Shown piece after piece: positions 17,415 to 33,059 of a stretch of 64,000 bases of DNA (position 1 is its first letter; each line of letters starts with the position of its first letter). Source of the DNA: a virus. Lineage: Duplodnaviria > Caudoviricetes. Location of the stretch: the IMG/VR virus record IMGVR_UViG_3300014205_000015, positions 1 to 64,000 of that record; one strand, given 5' to 3'. The notes beneath the pieces were generated by a model. It did not search any database. It was not told the DNA's origin and was given only the letters and a program-made list of their open reading frames with translations. The position numbers and the translations under genes were made by a program.

Positions 17415-17452
17415 TATTCTTTCCTCCGGGTAGGGTTTCAACGGGTTTAGCT

Positions 17453-17509
17453 GCCTCGTCAGGTCATCCCCACTACGGGATAACTACGCCCACAAGTGAG
17501 CGTTTCGGC
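17453..17509 (-). ncRNA. type II hammerhead ribozyme
   Basis: Minus strand: GCC-GAAA-CGCUCAC-UU-GUGGGCG-UA-GUUAUCCC-GUAGUG-GGGAUGAC-CUGACGA-GGC. Full core (CUGANGA, GAAA, GUA triplet) with stems III, I and II. Confidence 0.85.
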
Positions 17510-17510
17510 T

Positions 17511-23620: not shown

Positions 23621-23694
23621 GGAGTCGGTAGCTCAGGGGTAGAGCAGCGGGGCATGTAATCCGCGGTTGATGGTTCGAATCCGTCCCGATTCCA
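23621..23694 (+). tRNA. atypical tRNA (Thr-UGU-like; 8-nt anticodon loop, 8-bp acceptor stem)
   Basis: Cloverleaf: GGAGTCGG/CCGATTCC, TA-GCTC..GAGC D arm, GCGGG/TCCGC stem with loop GCATGTAA, GATGG-TTCGAAT-CCGTC T arm; no separate encoded CCA. Confidence 0.75.
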
Positions 23695-28783: not shown

Positions 28784-29269
28784 ATGGCTATTGTTGAAAA
28801 AGCAAGAGTGAAATGGGCAGATAAAGAGGCGGCAATTCGGTCGCTCGAGTCTGGCGGTAAAATCGACCCACTGGATTTGATTGAAGCCGCTCGCGATCCT
28901 GAACATCCGTGTCACTCTGATTTCACTTGGGACATCGACCAAGCGGCTGCCGAACGGTGGCGGGATCAAGCCCGTGAGTTGATTCGCTCGTGCAAGTTTG
29001 AAGTGCGAGTGGAAGACGTAGGCAGCAGGGTTTGCATGTACGTTCCATCTGGCGACGAAGATGCAACATTCGTGTCACTACCAAAGATTCGCAGCAAGGC
29101 TCAGGCGTCTGCGGTTGTTCTAGCGGAGGTTGCCATGTTGCTTGGGAATGCTTCTCGGGCATACGGGATAGCGTTGTCGAAAACGAACATTGTTGGCGCT
29201 GACGTTGTTGTTCAGTTGAAAGCGATTCGCGAACTGGTGGCTACGCTGAAGGCTGAGCTAGAGGATTGA
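28784..29269 (+). CDS. accessory protein of the array system (helical, possibly DNA-binding)
   Basis: DLIEAARDPEHPCHSDFTWD...A...ARELIRS; first gene of the operon, directly followed by array 1. Confidence 0.75.
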   Translation: MAIVEKARVKWADKEAAIRSLESGGKIDPLDLIEAARDPEHPCHSDFTWDIDQAAAERWRDQARELIRSCKFEVRVEDVGSRVCMYVPSGDEDATFVSLPKIRSKAQASAVVLAEVAMLLGNASRAYGIALSKTNIVGADVVVQLKAIRELVATLKAELED

Positions 29270-29275
29270 TTCATT

Positions 29276-29593
29276 GGTCAAGGAATGTCGGGGCGTGGTT
29301 CGGCGTGGTGTTTCAGGTTTCGGTATGCTTGGGCGGTCATGGAGAGGTCGGGCTAGGTGCGCTCTTGCGAGTCGAGTCGAGGCGGTCGAGTCCGTGCGGG
29401 GTGCGGAGTGCTCTGGTTGGGTCGGTCCAGGTTGGGTTCGGCGGTCGCGGTTAGGAATGGCGTGCTGCGGCGAGTCGGGGCTCGTTCCGGTTGGGCGGTC
29501 AAAGTGGGTCAAGGCTTGGTGCGAAGTGGTGCGTCCTGGAAAGGCGGTCGAGGCGGGGATTGGAGTGGCCCGTATTGGTCCGACAAGGCGGTC
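29276..29593 (+). repeat. 5-nt periodic guide-like array 1 (6 units, GGTC-NN-[GGY-NN]n-GGC)
   Basis: Units start at 29276, 29335, 29384, 29443, 29497, 29546; lengths 59, 49, 59, 54, 49, 44 (all 5n+4). Confidence 0.92.
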
Positions 29594-29681
29594 AGAGAGA
29601 GAAGGTTTTTGGTTTGGAGAGTGTTTCTCCAGACTCCTACACAACAGGGGTGTTTCACCCCGCAATTAAGGAGAAGCCATT

Positions 29682-30446
29682 ATGGCAAAAGCATCTGGTG
29701 TTTTGGAAGCGATTGAAGTTGAACCACTACGAGTTGGCAGTATGCAAGTCTGGCTGCGTGGTATCACGCCGCTGATCTGTAATCGATTGGCGGCAAAGGC
29801 ACGGCGCGAGCTGTTGCTTCCGAAGGGACGAAAGTCGACGGCGGAAAAGCAGCAATCGCTGAAGCATGATCCGGTAGCTGAGTTCCGAGACAGCATGAAT
29901 GTGCGATCTGGTGTTGGACCTACACGAGTAGTGTTTCCTGCGCCCGCAGTGAAGGGTTCTATGGCTACTGCCGCGCTGGAGACGAAAGGCACGAACAAAA
30001 CGCAGATTGGTCGTTTGGTTCGTGTGGCTGGTTATTCACTGGATGTCTACGGAATACCAGAATTATTCATGGCTATTGTTCGTTCGGCGGACATGGCTCG
30101 GACGCCCGACGTTCGGACGCGAGCGATCTTGCGCGAGTGGTGCATGCCTGTTACCGTTCAGTACGTCAAGCCGCAGATGTCTGAGCAGGCTATTATGCAA
30201 TTGCTTGCCAACGGCGGAATTATCATCGGAGTAGGTGATTTTCGTCAAGAAAAAGGCAAAGGCGATTTTGGCTGCTACGAGGTCGTCACCGAAGCCGATT
30301 GTAAGGACATTATCAAAAATGGCGGGTTGAAGCAGCAAGACGCTGCGATCAAGACTCCCGTCTGCTTCGACAGTGACACTGAAGAACTTTTAGGCTGGTT
30401 CCAACAGGAAGTTAAAGTTAGAGGAAAGGGAGAACTGGTTGCCTAA
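29682..30446 (+). CDS. Cas7/RAMP-like RNA-binding protein (VIPR-like effector candidate)
   Basis: N-terminal beta strand 'WLRGITPLI', FPAPAVKGS helix, RTRA..W core, C-terminal Gly-rich loop GGIIIGVGDFRQEKGKGDFG; flanked by both arrays. Confidence 0.75.
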   Translation: MAKASGVLEAIEVEPLRVGSMQVWLRGITPLICNRLAAKARRELLLPKGRKSTAEKQQSLKHDPVAEFRDSMNVRSGVGPTRVVFPAPAVKGSMATAALETKGTNKTQIGRLVRVAGYSLDVYGIPELFMAIVRSADMARTPDVRTRAILREWCMPVTVQYVKPQMSEQAIMQLLANGGIIIGVGDFRQEKGKGDFGCYEVVTEADCKDIIKNGGLKQQDAAIKTPVCFDSDTEELLGWFQQEVKVRGKGELVA

Positions 30447-30455
30447 CTGTCAATT

Positions 30456-31106
30456 GGTCGCGGAGAGGTATGGCAACATAAGTCACGGTCCGGCGAGTCA
30501 TGTCCGGGCGGTCATGGAATGGTTGGGCACGGCACCATATGGTATGTCGCGGCTTGGCGTGGCGGTCCCGGTTGGGTCCGGTAAAGCTGGTCGGGGCGGG
30601 GTGTTGCGAGCCCGGGTTTGGCGGTCGGGGTACGGTTCGGCACGGCGGGTCGGAGCATGGAATGTTGCGGCGGTCGCGTCGAGGTGCGGTGCGTTTGGGC
30701 GAGTCCAGGCGCGTCGGGGTATGGTTGGGCGGTCGAGGTGAGGAAAGGCTGCGCTAGTTCAGGCGAGTCATGGCACTGGCGGTCGCGGTATGTCCTGACT
30801 AGTCATGTGAGGAAAGGCGAGGCGGGGCGGTCGAGTCGGGTCTTGGAGAGGTTCGGTCCGTTGCGGTCTGTCCGGGCGGTTTGTCAAAGCTAGGCTGCGC
30901 GTGGCGGTCATGGTGACGAGAGGCTGGGTATGGTACGTCGCGGCGGGTCTGGGGCCGGTGAGGCGGTCAAGATTCGTCAGGTCGCGGACAGGCGGGGCGG
31001 GGTACGCTTAGGCGGGCCTAGTCCTGGCGGTCGCGTCGGGGTCTGGAGTGGCACGGTCGGGCAAGGTGAGTCGAGCTCTGGCGTGGTGAGTATCGGCAAG
31101 CCGGTC
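30456..31106 (+). repeat. 5-nt periodic guide-like array 2 (12 units)
   Basis: Units start at 30456, 30510, 30564, 30623, 30672, 30731, 30781, 30829, 30878, 30906, 30965, 31029; junction GGC-GGTC. Confidence 0.92.
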
Positions 31107-31127: not shown

Positions 31128-33059
31128 ATGCAGCACAATTGCTGCATGACCTCTCCTTTTTTTGATTTAGTCCCAAAAGACCCAATTGAGAATCTCCGTT
31201 GGCGCATTCGTTGCCGCGAGCGTGCATTGGCTGATAAGCGGTTTCGAGACTCGCTATATCAAGCGTGCATGAGTGATCTTTGTTTCTGGATGGCATTTGC
31301 CTGTTGGGGATACGACCCGCGAGCCCGCTTCAAGATCGTTCCATTTGTACCCTATCCACATCAACAAGCTGTGTTCGTGGCGATGGATGAAGCCATAAGC
31401 ACTGCCGAACGTGAAGAACGATCGGTCGACGTGATCCTGGACAAAAGTCGGGCTCAAGGTGGATCTTTTGGATATCTTTGGGTCGACCTTCGGCGCTGGC
31501 TGCGCGATCCAATGTTTTCAGCAGGTTTTGTTACGAAAAATGAAGATTCGATTGATTCAAAGAGCGACTCATCGACGGTGCTGTGGAAAGTGGCATGGGC
31601 GATTGAGCGATTGCCTTTCTGGATGAAGCCCAATTACGAACGGCATCTTGGTCAGCACACTTTCATTAACAACGACAACGGTTCGTTATTGCGAGGATAC
31701 TCTGCAGGGCAAGACGTGGCAGCCGGTGGCCGTACGACTGTGTTCACAGTGGACGAAGCTGGCGCGAGAGACTTCGTTTCAGGTGGCAAAGACGAAGCGG
31801 TTCAGGAGTCTATTCAAGACGTGTCCAACTGCATTCGCATGGTCTCTGCTCGTTACGTGGATGCAGGTGTCTTTCACGAAGCCTGCGAAAACCCAGACAC
31901 GAAAAAGAACGGTATTCATCTTATACTGGACTGGAAAGACCACCCCGCTCAAAGCAAGCACTCTTACATTGTGCGAGAGGGAATCGCGGTTGCCATAAAG
32001 CCGGAAGATCAAGCGGCGGTCACGGAATACCACCGAAAACACCCTGACCTGCGATCCCGACTGGAAAGAAAAGGATTTAAATTTGAAGTGGTTGTTCGCA
32101 GTCCGTGGTACGACTCTCGATGTTTGCGCCCGACAGCCACCCCGCGACTGATAGCTTCGCAGCTCGACCGCAACCCTCGCGGAGCAGTAGGTAAAGTTTT
32201 CGCATCAGACCTCTTGGACCGCATGAAGCGAGAGCACTGCAAGGGTCCAGTTTGGGTGGGCAATCCAGTATTTGACTCAGAAACCTGCAAACTAACGGGA
32301 TTGATTCCCAGGGATGACGGCTTGCTGAAACTGTGGTTCAAGCCGGGCATCGACAACTCACCGCCGCTGGGACCGTTCACCGCGGGATGCGACATCGCTT
32401 CGGGTGGAGTTGGGGCGTATTCCTCAAACTCGGTCATAACGGCGCTGGACGACAGAACCGGGGAGCAAGTCTTGGAGTACACGGTCAAGGGACTCGAGCC
32501 ACGACCGTTTGCACGCCGGGTGGTTGGGCTGTGCATGTGGCTTAGAAACGCACTGCTTGGCTGGGAGGATTCCGGGGTGTCTGGTGGTTTTGCTAAGGAA
32601 ATCATGGAAGTTCTTTATTATGGTTCCGTGTTCTATCGGGACGTAAACCAGCTCGGTTCCCAGAAGAAAAGCCGCAAGCCTGGCTGGCCGTGCCGTGACG
32701 CAGACAAAGCGGACGATTTTGAGCAAATGGCGCTGGCGATGGAGACTGGGAAGTTCGTTCCGCGTTCCGAGGAAATGATTGTCGAGTGTTCTGAATATGA
32801 GTGGGACGGCACCAAAATCATTCACGCACCGTCGAAAAACAAGGGGGCGGCTGACAAGAATCACGCCGACCGCGCTATAGCAATGGCAGGCTGTTGGAAG
32901 GTCTTTAGCACCGATAATGCAACCCGTAAGATTGACACAGACGTGGAAAACGGTCAGAATCCAGAGTACGGCTCGTTTTTATGGCGAGAGCAGCAAGAGC
33001 GCCGGAACGTGAAAACGGGTAGCCCGAAGTTCGGGATTAGGGACATTATTGGACGCTAA
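31128..33059 (+). CDS. terL: terminase large subunit
   Basis: PYPHQ, Walker A-like KSRAQGGS, Walker B VDEAG, RNase H-like GCDIASG, HADRAIA. Confidence 0.92.
   Translation: MQHNCCMTSPFFDLVPKDPIENLRWRIRCRERALADKRFRDSLYQACMSDLCFWMAFACWGYDPRARFKIVPFVPYPHQQAVFVAMDEAISTAEREERSVDVILDKSRAQGGSFGYLWVDLRRWLRDPMFSAGFVTKNEDSIDSKSDSSTVLWKVAWAIERLPFWMKPNYERHLGQHTFINNDNGSLLRGYSAGQDVAAGGRTTVFTVDEAGARDFVSGGKDEAVQESIQDVSNCIRMVSARYVDAGVFHEACENPDTKKNGIHLILDWKDHPAQSKHSYIVREGIAVAIKPEDQAAVTEYHRKHPDLRSRLERKGFKFEVVVRSPWYDSRCLRPTATPRLIASQLDRNPRGAVGKVFASDLLDRMKREHCKGPVWVGNPVFDSETCKLTGLIPRDDGLLKLWFKPGIDNSPPLGPFTAGCDIASGGVGAYSSNSVITALDDRTGEQVLEYTVKGLEPRPFARRVVGLCMWLRNALLGWEDSGVSGGFAKEIMEVLYYGSVFYRDVNQLGSQKKSRKPGWPCRDADKADDFEQMALAMETGKFVPRSEEMIVECSEYEWDGTKIIHAPSKNKGAADKNHADRAIAMAGCWKVFSTDNATRKIDTDVENGQNPEYGSFLWREQQERRNVKTGSPKFGIRDIIGR

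What the first reader, a model, noticed from the sequence alone, without database searches (positions are those of the whole stretch)
31443..31562. Own terL avoids its guides partly through Ser and Arg codon-family swaps
Seen: in KSRAQGG the guide specifies TCx (Ser) and AGx (Arg), whereas the phage uses AGT and CGG. Established: only six-codon amino acids (Ser, Arg, Leu) allow synonymous changes at codon positions 1-2. The other mismatches are amino-acid substitutions, mostly conservative (T/S, Y/F, L/F, R/K, V/I; also L/S). Inference: this is the escape or self-discrimination signature expected if positions 1-2 are read and position 3 ignored. It could also just reflect ordinary divergence from the true target.
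Basis: inference. Interest (0 to 1): 0.7.

Follow-up and report, generated by a model that had tools for sequence, protein, structure and literature searches.

The report
VIPR guides spare own terminase gene
A phage carrying the recently described VIPR RNA-guided silencer aims its last two guides at the terminase gene of a rival phage clade; its own copy escapes a full match partly through silent serine and arginine codon-family differences, but these are ordinary inherited divergence, not a recoding made to dodge the guides.

Summary
Window 31443-31562 is codons 106-145 of the phage's large terminase gene (terL). The two guide units just upstream (30962-31025 and 31026-31099) spell codon positions 1-2 of that stretch. 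They match the phage's own gene at 19/24 and 22/28 read bases. Guide TC/AG stands against own AGT/CGG.

The system is already known. It is a VIPR locus (vap, vipr and two staggered vrRNA arrays with the one-base-skip code), described in 2026 preprints.

The escape reading is not supported:
- I found the target clade, a group of rival phages that mostly carry VIPR themselves. Their terL reads TCN-AGA exactly as the guide does and matches at 22-23/24 and 24-25/28.
- Own AGT and CGG also occur in relatives with no VIPR at that locus. One of them has the identical codons.
- Between own and target clades, 29-38% of all conserved Ser/Arg/Leu codons differ in family gene-wide, against 2 of 4 in the guide windows (p 0.34-0.49).

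Two things remain suggestive:
- The own TerL departs from residues at least 95% conserved in 120 homologues at only two sites, R137K and L141S. Both lie under the second guide (p about 0.005).
- Among equally conserved windows, the Walker A window is unusually diverged at read positions.

This scan has noted similar guide/self codon-family mismatches in VIPR phages on other DNA.

The parts
28784..29269 (+). vap, the VIPR accessory gene (161 aa)
   Evidence: Co-occurs with vipr in L026-L029 (56-79% identity) and in distant vipr loci L031-L038 (24-44%). Matches phrog_15946.
29277..29610 (+). vrRNA array 1: about 6-7 staggered units (GGCGGTC, then NN plus a G-rich triplet, repeated)
29682..30446 (+). 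vipr, the RAMP-family effector (254 aa)
   Evidence: The only PDB sequence match is the SUSP1 Vipr protein 36pp_D: E 0.0027 for the single sequence and 9.3e-07 for a 13-sequence profile. Also phrog_4652 and 479 relatives in IMG/VR.
30456..31099 (+). vrRNA array 2: about 11-12 staggered units ending 28 nt before terL
30456..30506 (+). Guide against rival vipr genes
   Evidence: NN string GC GA AT AA AA AC CC GA AT CG matches vipr of L029/L030 at 19/20 and of L025/L028 at 18/20. The own vipr site 30087-30116 scores only 15/20 by my direct count from the sequence.
30962..31025 (+). Guide g1 (12 NN), aimed at the terL Walker A site
   Evidence: 23/24 to terL of L026, L027, L028 and L024; 22/24 to L011/L021 and L044; 19/24 to own.
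31026..31099 (+). Guide g2 (14 NN), aimed at terL codons 132-145
   Evidence: 25/28 to L028, L024 and many own-clade relatives; 22/28 to own.
31128..33059 (+). terL, the large terminase gene
   Evidence: The AlphaFold model (mean pLDDT 72.7) matches T4 gp17 at E 4.7e-16, and also T7, G20c, D6E, HK97 and Sf6 large terminases. phrog_5989 at E 5e-4.
31443..31478 (+). Own site homologous to g1 (KSRAQGGSFGYL), 19/24
31446..31451 (+). Ser107 AGT and Arg108 CGG: the two silent codon-family differences from the guide (TC, AG)
31521..31562 (+). Own site homologous to g2 (AGFVTKNEDSIDSK), 22/28
31536..31538 (+). Lys137 AAA; Arg in 119 of 120 homologues
   Evidence: Shared only with P0002 (locus L022).
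31548..31550 (+). Ser141 TCG; Leu in 119 of 120 homologues
   Evidence: Shared only with P0002 (locus L022).

Best explanation
The flagged stretch is the start of the ATPase domain of the phage's own large terminase gene. It is the homologue, not the target, of the last two guides of the VIPR array directly upstream.

By the published mechanism, Vipr protomers polymerise on each vrRNA. They hide the GGY-like triplets and present the NN dinucleotides. The dinucleotides pair with target DNA while every third target base, the wobble base, is skipped, and the bound gene is silenced.

Guides g1 and g2 copy the terL of a rival clade of related phages, most of which carry VIPR themselves. They presumably silence that essential packaging gene when both phages meet in one cell.

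The own gene is spared because it belongs to a different TerL clade (61-66% amino-acid identity). It differs at 5/24 and 6/28 read bases, which puts it at 79%, just under the 80% cut-off the VIPR authors use to call targets. Those 11 differing bases break down as:
- 3 from silent Ser/Arg codon-family differences;
- 4 from conservative substitutions shared with the own subclade;
- 4 from two rare substitutions, R137K and L141S.

The Ser and Arg codon families were inherited and are shared with relatives that lack VIPR. They were not acquired in response to the guides. If selection acted at all, it more likely acted on which guides the array can keep (only guides that miss self) than on recoding terL.

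What is shown here: the array anatomy, the code, the matches and the phylogenetic distribution. What is taken from the literature: filament formation, the skip rule and silencing. What is inferred: that a 79% match spares the own gene, and that rivals are silenced in vivo.
For: System identity. The locus has vap, vipr and two staggered arrays. The vipr profile hits only SUSP1 Vipr in the PDB, E 9.3e-07. Only the 1-nt skip gives high foreign matches: 23/24, 25/28 and 19/20, against 15-20 for skips 0, 2 and 3. The single exception is the vipr guide at skip 3, which finds its own copy in L025's array. Anatomy and rule are as published.

Target identified. L026, L027 and L028 read AAA/AAG TCA/TCC AGA ... 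ACT/ACG TAT, matching g1 at 23/24. They also have CTN at Leu134 and GTN at Val142 as g2 spells, matching at 24-25/28. L040, L042 and L044 are in the same clade. In the tree, built before those three were fetched, the clade (L026, L027, L028, L011/L021) has 100/100 support.

No own-specific avoidance at g1. Other members of the own clade score 18-21/24 and own scores 19. L019 has the identical AGT CGG with 5 kb of VIPR-free upstream sequence. None of L001-L024 has a vipr homologue.

Swap rates. 29-38% of conserved S/R/L codons differ in family between own and the L026/L028 target-clade genes gene-wide.

General pattern. Ten terL-directed guides in six VIPR phages match self at 0.60-0.85 and the best non-self at 0.85-1.00. 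The targeting is reciprocal: L042 carries a Walker A guide spelling the own-clade variant at 23/24 while its own gene scores 19/24.
Against: The mismatch tolerance of this VIPR type has not been measured, so a 79% match might still bind.

No database sequence matches both guides perfectly, so the exact target is not in hand.

Among windows with the same amino-acid identity (9/12) between own and target-clade genes, the g1 window lies in the lowest 4-24% for read-base identity. Only 4-26% of such windows hold two or more family swaps. The pooled swap rate in guide windows is 50% against 29% outside (p 0.14). A modest real enrichment is therefore not excluded.

R137K and L141S concentrate under g2 (p 0.005-0.04). 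That points to some selection at guide footprints.

'VIPR-less' is shown only for the sequenced flank of each relative, not for whole genomes.
Confidence: 0.78

Rival explanations
1. Adaptive recoding. After acquiring guides against terL, the phage switched Ser107 to AGY and Arg108 to CGN so that its own gene is not silenced.
For: Three of five mismatched bases of g1 are silent family differences. The two closest relatives, L022 and L023, have AGA at Arg108, so CGG may be derived on the own branch. The g1 window is more diverged at read positions than most equally conserved windows. Other notes of this scan report similar silent mismatches in other VIPR phages; these are unchecked here.
Against: AGY at Ser107 is shared with L013, L016, L019, L022, L023 and L025. 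The exact AGT CGG is in L019, which lacks VIPR at the locus. CGN is the majority Arg family in the clade. Own scores 19/24 against a clade range of 18-21. Swap rate in the windows does not differ from elsewhere. Own and L022 differ at only 1 of 52 read bases in the two windows, while about 15% of codons gene-wide differ at positions 1-2 (94 of 638).
Confidence: 0.07
2. Amino-acid-level escape. R137K and L141S were fixed in the own+L022 lineage because they break pairing with VIPR guides aimed at codons 132-145. Those guides could be the lineage's own g2 (self-avoidance) or rivals' guides such as L026 unit 5631 (target-side escape). The silent swaps are bystanders.
For: Among 236-238 sites at least 95% conserved in 120 homologues, own deviates at exactly two, and both lie under g2 (hypergeometric p 0.005-0.006; p 0.001-0.04 for thresholds 0.8-1.0). 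Each change removes both read bases against g2, taking a consensus-type ancestor from 24-26/28 (86-93%, my arithmetic from the relatives' codons) to 22/28. The same site is hit by a rival guide: L026 unit 5631 scores 17/20 on own and 18-19/20 on other members of the own clade.
Against: Both changes are shared with L022, which has no array or vipr in the 1.2 kb upstream of terL. They therefore need not be linked to carrying g2. Only two substitutions are involved. An equally good account is that the array could only keep g2 because self already differed.
Confidence: 0.3
3. Autoregulation. The two guides bind the phage's own terL imperfectly, to time or damp its expression.
For: The guides sit immediately upstream of terL, and the self match (79%) is far above chance.
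Against: 20-21 of 26 other terL genes match better than self. The guides carry target-clade-specific states (TCN, AGA, ACN, TAY, CTN at 134, GTN at 142). In every VIPR relative examined the terL guides fit foreign genes better than self. The published surveys found no self hits at 80% or above.
Confidence: 0.05

Closest known systems
VIPR systems (Vipr RAMP protein + vrRNA + vap), bioRxiv 10.64898/2026.04.26.720920. Structures in 10.64898/2026.04.26.720927.
   Same: A small Vipr homologue with a co-occurring accessory gene. Guides built of pentanucleotide repeats with a conserved G-rich triplet and a variable NN. One-base-skip matching with the skip on the wobble base. Phage-borne, with targets in rival phages including rival vipr genes. 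No self hit at or above 80% NN match.
   Different: The characterised type II systems (SUSP1, P. fulva) have vrRNAs of about 100 nt with a 3' pseudoknot tail. Here units of 44-64 nt abut one another with lengths equal to 4 mod 5. That fits the 'staggered arrays' mentioned only in that paper's text and figure S18 legend. The triplets are GGT, GGC, GTC or GGA rather than strict GGY. The targets here are the large terminase of related phages. My term searches of the three VIPR papers found no terminase named as a natural target; their supplementary target tables were not read.
Self/non-self discrimination and orphan vrRNAs in SUSP1-family phages, bioRxiv 10.64898/2026.10.15.759431
   Same: Guides score lower on self than on rivals. 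VIPR-null phages carry solo vrRNAs aimed at rival vipr genes. Here L011/L021 has such a solo unit, matching vipr genes at 20-21/22, including own 30237-30269. Footprints are wobble-aligned on conserved coding sequence.
   Different: That paper argues escape requires amino-acid-changing mutations, and the first paper says the skip defeats 'synonymous codon swaps'. Neither mentions that Ser, Arg and Leu allow silent changes at read positions. Here such differences make up 10-28% of all position-1/2 differences between terL homologues, and 3 of 5 mismatches of g1.
CRISPR self/non-self discrimination (PAM or repeat-flank pairing) and phage escape by protospacer mutation
   Same: An RNA-guided system has to spare the genome that encodes it, and targets can escape by point mutation.
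   Different: The published VIPR work reports no PAM. Here the spared self sequence is a diverged homologue of the target, not the guide-encoding array. Discrimination rests only on the number of mismatched read bases.

Membership tests
VIPR system | Vipr protein (minimal RAMP homologue) | tested here: met
   The 254-aa ORF at 29682-30446: the only PDB sequence hit is SUSP1 Vipr 36pp_D, E 0.0027 for the single sequence and 9.3e-07 for the profile, aligned over the GvGdfR loop region. The fold itself was not modelled.
VIPR system | vrRNAs of tandem pentanucleotide repeats: a conserved GGY-like triplet alternating with a hypervariable NN, about 9-16 repeats | tested here: met
   Units carry 8-14 NN. 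The commonest triplets are GGT 42, GGC 29, GTC 29 and GGA 13. The count of 193 includes some over-run past unit ends. The lag-5 periodicity is clear.
VIPR system | Targets follow the one-base-skip rule, with the skip on the codon wobble position | tested here: met
   Skip 1 gives 23/24, 25/28 and 19/20 on foreign loci, in frame with codons. Skips 0, 2 and 3 give 15-20, apart from one self-array artefact.
VIPR system | Associated vap accessory gene | tested here: met
   The 161-aa ORF at 28784-29269 co-occurs with vipr in close and distant loci.
VIPR system | Conserved 3' tail or pseudoknot capping each vrRNA (type II architecture) | tested here: not met
   Units abut directly through GGCGGTC with no tail. 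This fits the published 'staggered array' architecture rather than type II. The VIPR type was not assigned.
VIPR system | vrRNAs are expressed, processed and bound by Vipr; target transcription is silenced | not testable with these tools
   Needs small-RNA sequencing, pull-down and reporter assays.
Large terminase (TerL) | Two-domain ATPase plus RNase H-like nuclease fold, with Walker A and Walker B motifs | tested here: met
   Foldseek top hits are T4 gp17 (E 4.7e-16), T7, G20c, D6E, HK97 and Sf6 terminases. Walker A DKSRAQGGS is at residues 105-113 and Walker B-like VFTVDEAG at 204-211. Pfam gives no hit.
Adaptive codon-family recoding against own guides (the hypothesis under test) | Family swaps enriched in guide footprints and restricted to guide-carrying lineages | tested here: not met
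   2/4 against 29-38% (p 0.34-0.49). Pooled 5/10 against 29% (p 0.14). The same codons occur in relatives without VIPR.

The most novel reading that the evidence does not exclude
Silent Ser/Arg/Leu codon-family differences, together with rare substitutions such as R137K and L141S, are what VIPR self/non-self discrimination runs on at conserved protein motifs. On this reading, a guide against a rival's essential gene can persist only where the carrier's own copy already differs, or comes to differ, at read positions. At motifs frozen at the protein level those differences are disproportionately silent family switches. That would be a general loophole in the published claim that wobble-skipping defeats synonymous escape. 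It would also put the silencing threshold between about 79% and 88% read-base match.
Probability: 0.3. Interest if true: 0.6.

Novelty: new member of a known kind. Interest (0 to 1): 0.35.

Why it matters
VIPR was described only in 2026, and how a carrier spares its own homologous genes has hardly been studied. This locus is a natural calibration point: the same two guides meet rival terL genes at 86-96% read-base match and the carrier's own gene at 79%. The locus also shows related phages, several of them VIPR carriers, aiming guides at each other's large terminase, sometimes at the same Walker A site in both directions. I found no terminase named as a natural target in the text of the three VIPR papers I searched. 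It further shows that the published argument that skipping the wobble base defeats synonymous escape has an exception at Ser, Arg and Leu codons. That exception is quantitatively real in this gene family. For the specific claim under review, the result is sobering: the codon-family differences here are inherited divergence, so they should not be cited as an evolved escape signature.

Tried and rejected
Exact one-skip patterns of g1 and g2 found nothing in IMG/VR. g1 with up to 3 mismatches found nothing elsewhere in the own 77.7-kb genome. The exact target is therefore not in the databases searched.

Pfam gave nothing for TerL, Vipr or vap. A PDB sequence search gave nothing for TerL. TerL identity had to come from a fold search instead.

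Global period-3, -4, -5, -6 and -10 base composition showed no phase signal, because each unit shifts the phase by one base. Local autocorrelation was needed.

Reading the G-rich triplets, or NN plus the following G, as codons gave no sensible peptide and put a stop where Tyr is needed. I rejected this on inspection of the sequence.

Elevated divergence of own from relatives inside the windows is not significant: 17% against 9.5% for the closest relatives, and the reverse for others. Own-specific position-1/2 codons were 2 of 26 in the windows against 16 of 610 outside, p 0.16.

Chance resemblance is rejected by the permutation tests.

I considered a cos/pac or TerS-binding repeat as an explanation for the G-rich period-5 DNA upstream of terL. 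I dropped it once the skip-1 matches and the Vipr homology were found.

No structure was predicted for Vipr and no complex prediction was run.
Full report
**What is at the coordinates.** The ORF at 31128-33059 encodes a 643-aa protein. An AlphaFold model built on 42 homologues (mean pLDDT 72.7) matches large terminases: T4 gp17 at E 4.7e-16, and also T7, G20c, D6E, HK97 and Sf6. Window 31443-31562 is codons 106-145. It begins at the Walker A motif KSRAQGGS and ends at ...IDSK. The record is a complete 77.7-kb virus genome with terminal repeats.

**The 'guides'.** Two G-rich regions on the same strand lie directly upstream, at 29277-29610 and 30456-31099. A 254-aa ORF (29682-30446) separates them and a 161-aa ORF (28784-29269) precedes them.
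- Each unit starts with GGCGGTC: 31 copies in the window against 9 expected, 16 of them in the arrays.
- Units are 44, 49, 54, 59 or 64 nt long, always 4 mod 5.
- Inside a unit, two variable bases alternate with a triplet that is mostly GGT, GGC, GTC or GGA.
- Lag-5 self-identity is 0.44 against a background of about 0.27.

**Checking the observation.** Unit 30962 reads AA TC AG GC CA GG GG AC TA GG TA CT, and unit 31026 reads GC GG CT GT AC CG AA GA GA CT GT GA TC AA. Laid on codon positions 1-2, they match own terL at 31443-31478 (19/24) and 31521-31562 (22/28). No other guide has an above-chance self match.

**What the system is.** VIPR consists of a small RAMP protein (Vipr), an accessory gene (vap) and vrRNAs of GGY/NN pentanucleotide repeats. 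The NN dinucleotides pair with double-stranded DNA while every third target base, usually the wobble base, is skipped. Binding silences transcription. Natural targets are rival mobile elements. Arrays can be 'staggered', with units overlapping by one base.

Tests done here:
- A profile of the 254-aa protein and 12 relatives hits only SUSP1 Vipr in the PDB, E 9.3e-07.
- The 161-aa ORF travels with vipr in close and distant loci.
- Only a one-base skip gives high foreign matches: 23/24, 25/28 and 19/20 against 15-20 for other skips. The one exception is a guide finding its own copy in a related array.

The locus is therefore a VIPR system of the staggered-array kind. The family is large, with 479 IMG/VR hits. 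The closest genomic relatives lie on Planctomycetaceae and Thermoguttaceae MAG contigs.

**Finding the target.** Exact patterns found nothing in IMG/VR. I therefore fetched terL relatives and vipr relatives.
- A well-supported TerL clade (100/100 in the tree) contains L026, L027, L028 and L011/L021. L040, L042 and L044, fetched later, group with it by 73-85% identity. It is 54-66% identical to own TerL.
- This clade spells the Walker A site as AAR TCN AGA GCG CAA GGN GGN ACN TAT ... TAY CTN. It matches g1 at 22-23/24 in most members. L040 and L042, which have CGN at Arg108, score 19 and 21.
- It has CTN at residue 134 and GTN at 142, as g2 spells, and matches g2 at 23-25/28.
- L024 also scores 23/24 and 25/28.
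- So the guide's TC and AG are simply the rival clade's codons.
- Most of that clade carries VIPR, with Vipr 85-89% identical to ours.

**The fight is reciprocal.**
- L042 carries a Walker A guide spelling the own-clade variant KARAQGGTFGYL: 23/24 on L004 and 19/24 on its own gene.
- Another L042 guide has our own terL as its best match: 31578-31607, 18/20.
- L026 has a guide on codons 132-141: 18-19/20 on other members of the own clade, 17/20 on own, 14/20 on itself.
- L025 has one that matches L023 at 18/18.
- Across ten terL-directed guides in six phages, the self match is 0.60-0.85 and the best non-self match is 0.85-1.00.
- One own guide (30456-30506) matches rival vipr genes at 18-19/20 and own vipr at 15/20.
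- The VIPR-null phage L011 carries a solo vrRNA that matches vipr genes at 20-21/22, including ours.

First, distribution among relatives.
- Ser107 is AGY in own, L013, L016, L019, L022, L023 and L025. It is TCN in L006-8 and L012, and Ala elsewhere in the own clade.
- Arg108 is CGN in most of the own clade and AGA in L003, L015, L022 and L023.
- L019 has AAA AGT CGG GCT CAA GGT identical to own.
- None of L001-L024 has a vipr homologue or array. L019 has 5 kb and L022 1.2 kb of upstream sequence.
- Own scores 19/24 on g1 where other members of its clade score 18-21, so own is not specially mismatched there.

Second, frequency.
- Between own and L026 or L028, 29-38% of all conserved Ser/Arg/Leu codons differ in family. 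In the windows it is 2 of 4 (p 0.34-0.49).
- Pooled over seven guides it is 5/10 against 164/561 (p 0.14).
- Of the 39 guide-versus-self mismatched codons I tallied, 7 are silent family differences. The inter-clade baseline is 10-16%.
- The windows are as diverged as the gene average. By my count from the codons, 42-43% of codons differ at positions 1-2 between own and L028, against 41% gene-wide.

**What remains suggestive.**
- Conditioned on amino-acid conservation (9/12 identical), the g1 window is in the lowest 4-24% for read-base identity. Only 4-26% of such windows hold two or more family swaps.
- In 120 homologues, own TerL departs from residues at least 95% conserved at only two sites, R137K and L141S. 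Both lie under g2 and each removes two read bases (p 0.005-0.006; 0.001-0.04 across thresholds).
- Both changes are shared only with L022, which has no VIPR at the locus.

The simplest account is a filter on guides. An array can keep a guide against a conserved motif only if the carrier's own copy already differs at read positions. At conserved motifs, such differences are often silent family switches or rare substitutions. Escape of the own+L022 lineage from guides aimed at this site is a live alternative.

**Comparison with the literature.** The first paper states that wobble skipping would overcome resistance 'by synonymous codon swaps'. The October paper says escape requires mutating amino-acid-determining positions. 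My term searches of the main texts found no mention of the Ser/Arg/Leu exception, and terminase appears only in methods text, never as a natural target. Both papers report that self matches stay below non-self matches or below 80%. Our 79.2% and 78.6% sit just under that line. Other notes of this scan report silent codon-family mismatches between guides and self in other VIPR phages. I did not check those.

**Verdict.** The system is a known kind and this locus is a new member of it. The specific claim that the Ser and Arg codon families are an evolved avoidance signature is not supported here, and ordinary divergence from an identified rival clade explains them.

Noticed in passing
L012, L019, L020; proteins P0011, P0025, P0029, P0066 and others: Roughly 15-20% of the TerL homologues listed are 910-1016 aa instead of about 640. 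One (P0066) carries a LAGLIDADG_3 domain. This looks like an intein or homing-endonuclease insertion in terL.
   Followed up: no
terL codon 115 (own 31470-31472); L026, L028, L040, L042, L044: Residue 115, the tenth dinucleotide of g1, is Gly in the own clade and in nearly all of 120 homologues. In the target clade it is Cys, Ile, Val or Thr. This is a hypervariable spot inside the g1 footprint and could be target-side escape.
   Followed up: partly
L011:3113-3170 (same contig as L021); own vipr 30237-30269: A VIPR-null relative carries a single vrRNA-like unit just upstream of its terL. Its dinucleotides match the vipr genes of this group at 20-21/22, including this window's vipr. This fits the published orphan vrRNAs.
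   Followed up: partly
window 31578-31607, 31521-31550, 31443-31478: Guides of rival VIPR phages match this phage's own terL: L042 unit 2407 at 18/20, L026 unit 5631 at 17/20 and L042 unit 2461 at 20/24. This phage is itself a predicted target.
   Followed up: partly
window 29682-30446 against 31128-33059, compared with L026 and L028: Vipr is 86-89% identical between this phage and L026/L028, while the adjacent TerL is only 61-65% identical. The VIPR cassette may have moved between the two clades.
   Followed up: no
L116, L117: The closest vipr relatives in prokaryote assemblies (73% identity) lie on Planctomycetaceae and Thermoguttaceae MAG contigs. This hints at a planctomycete host.
   Followed up: no
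window 20416, 21810, 22175, 22221, 38113, 55331: There are six copies of the 18-nt perfect palindrome TGTCCACAATTGTGGACA or close variants. They are probably operator or terminator sites.
   Followed up: no
window 17445-17510 (-), 23622-23693 (+): A type II hammerhead ribozyme (50.6 bits) and a tRNA gene lie away from the VIPR arrays.
   Followed up: no
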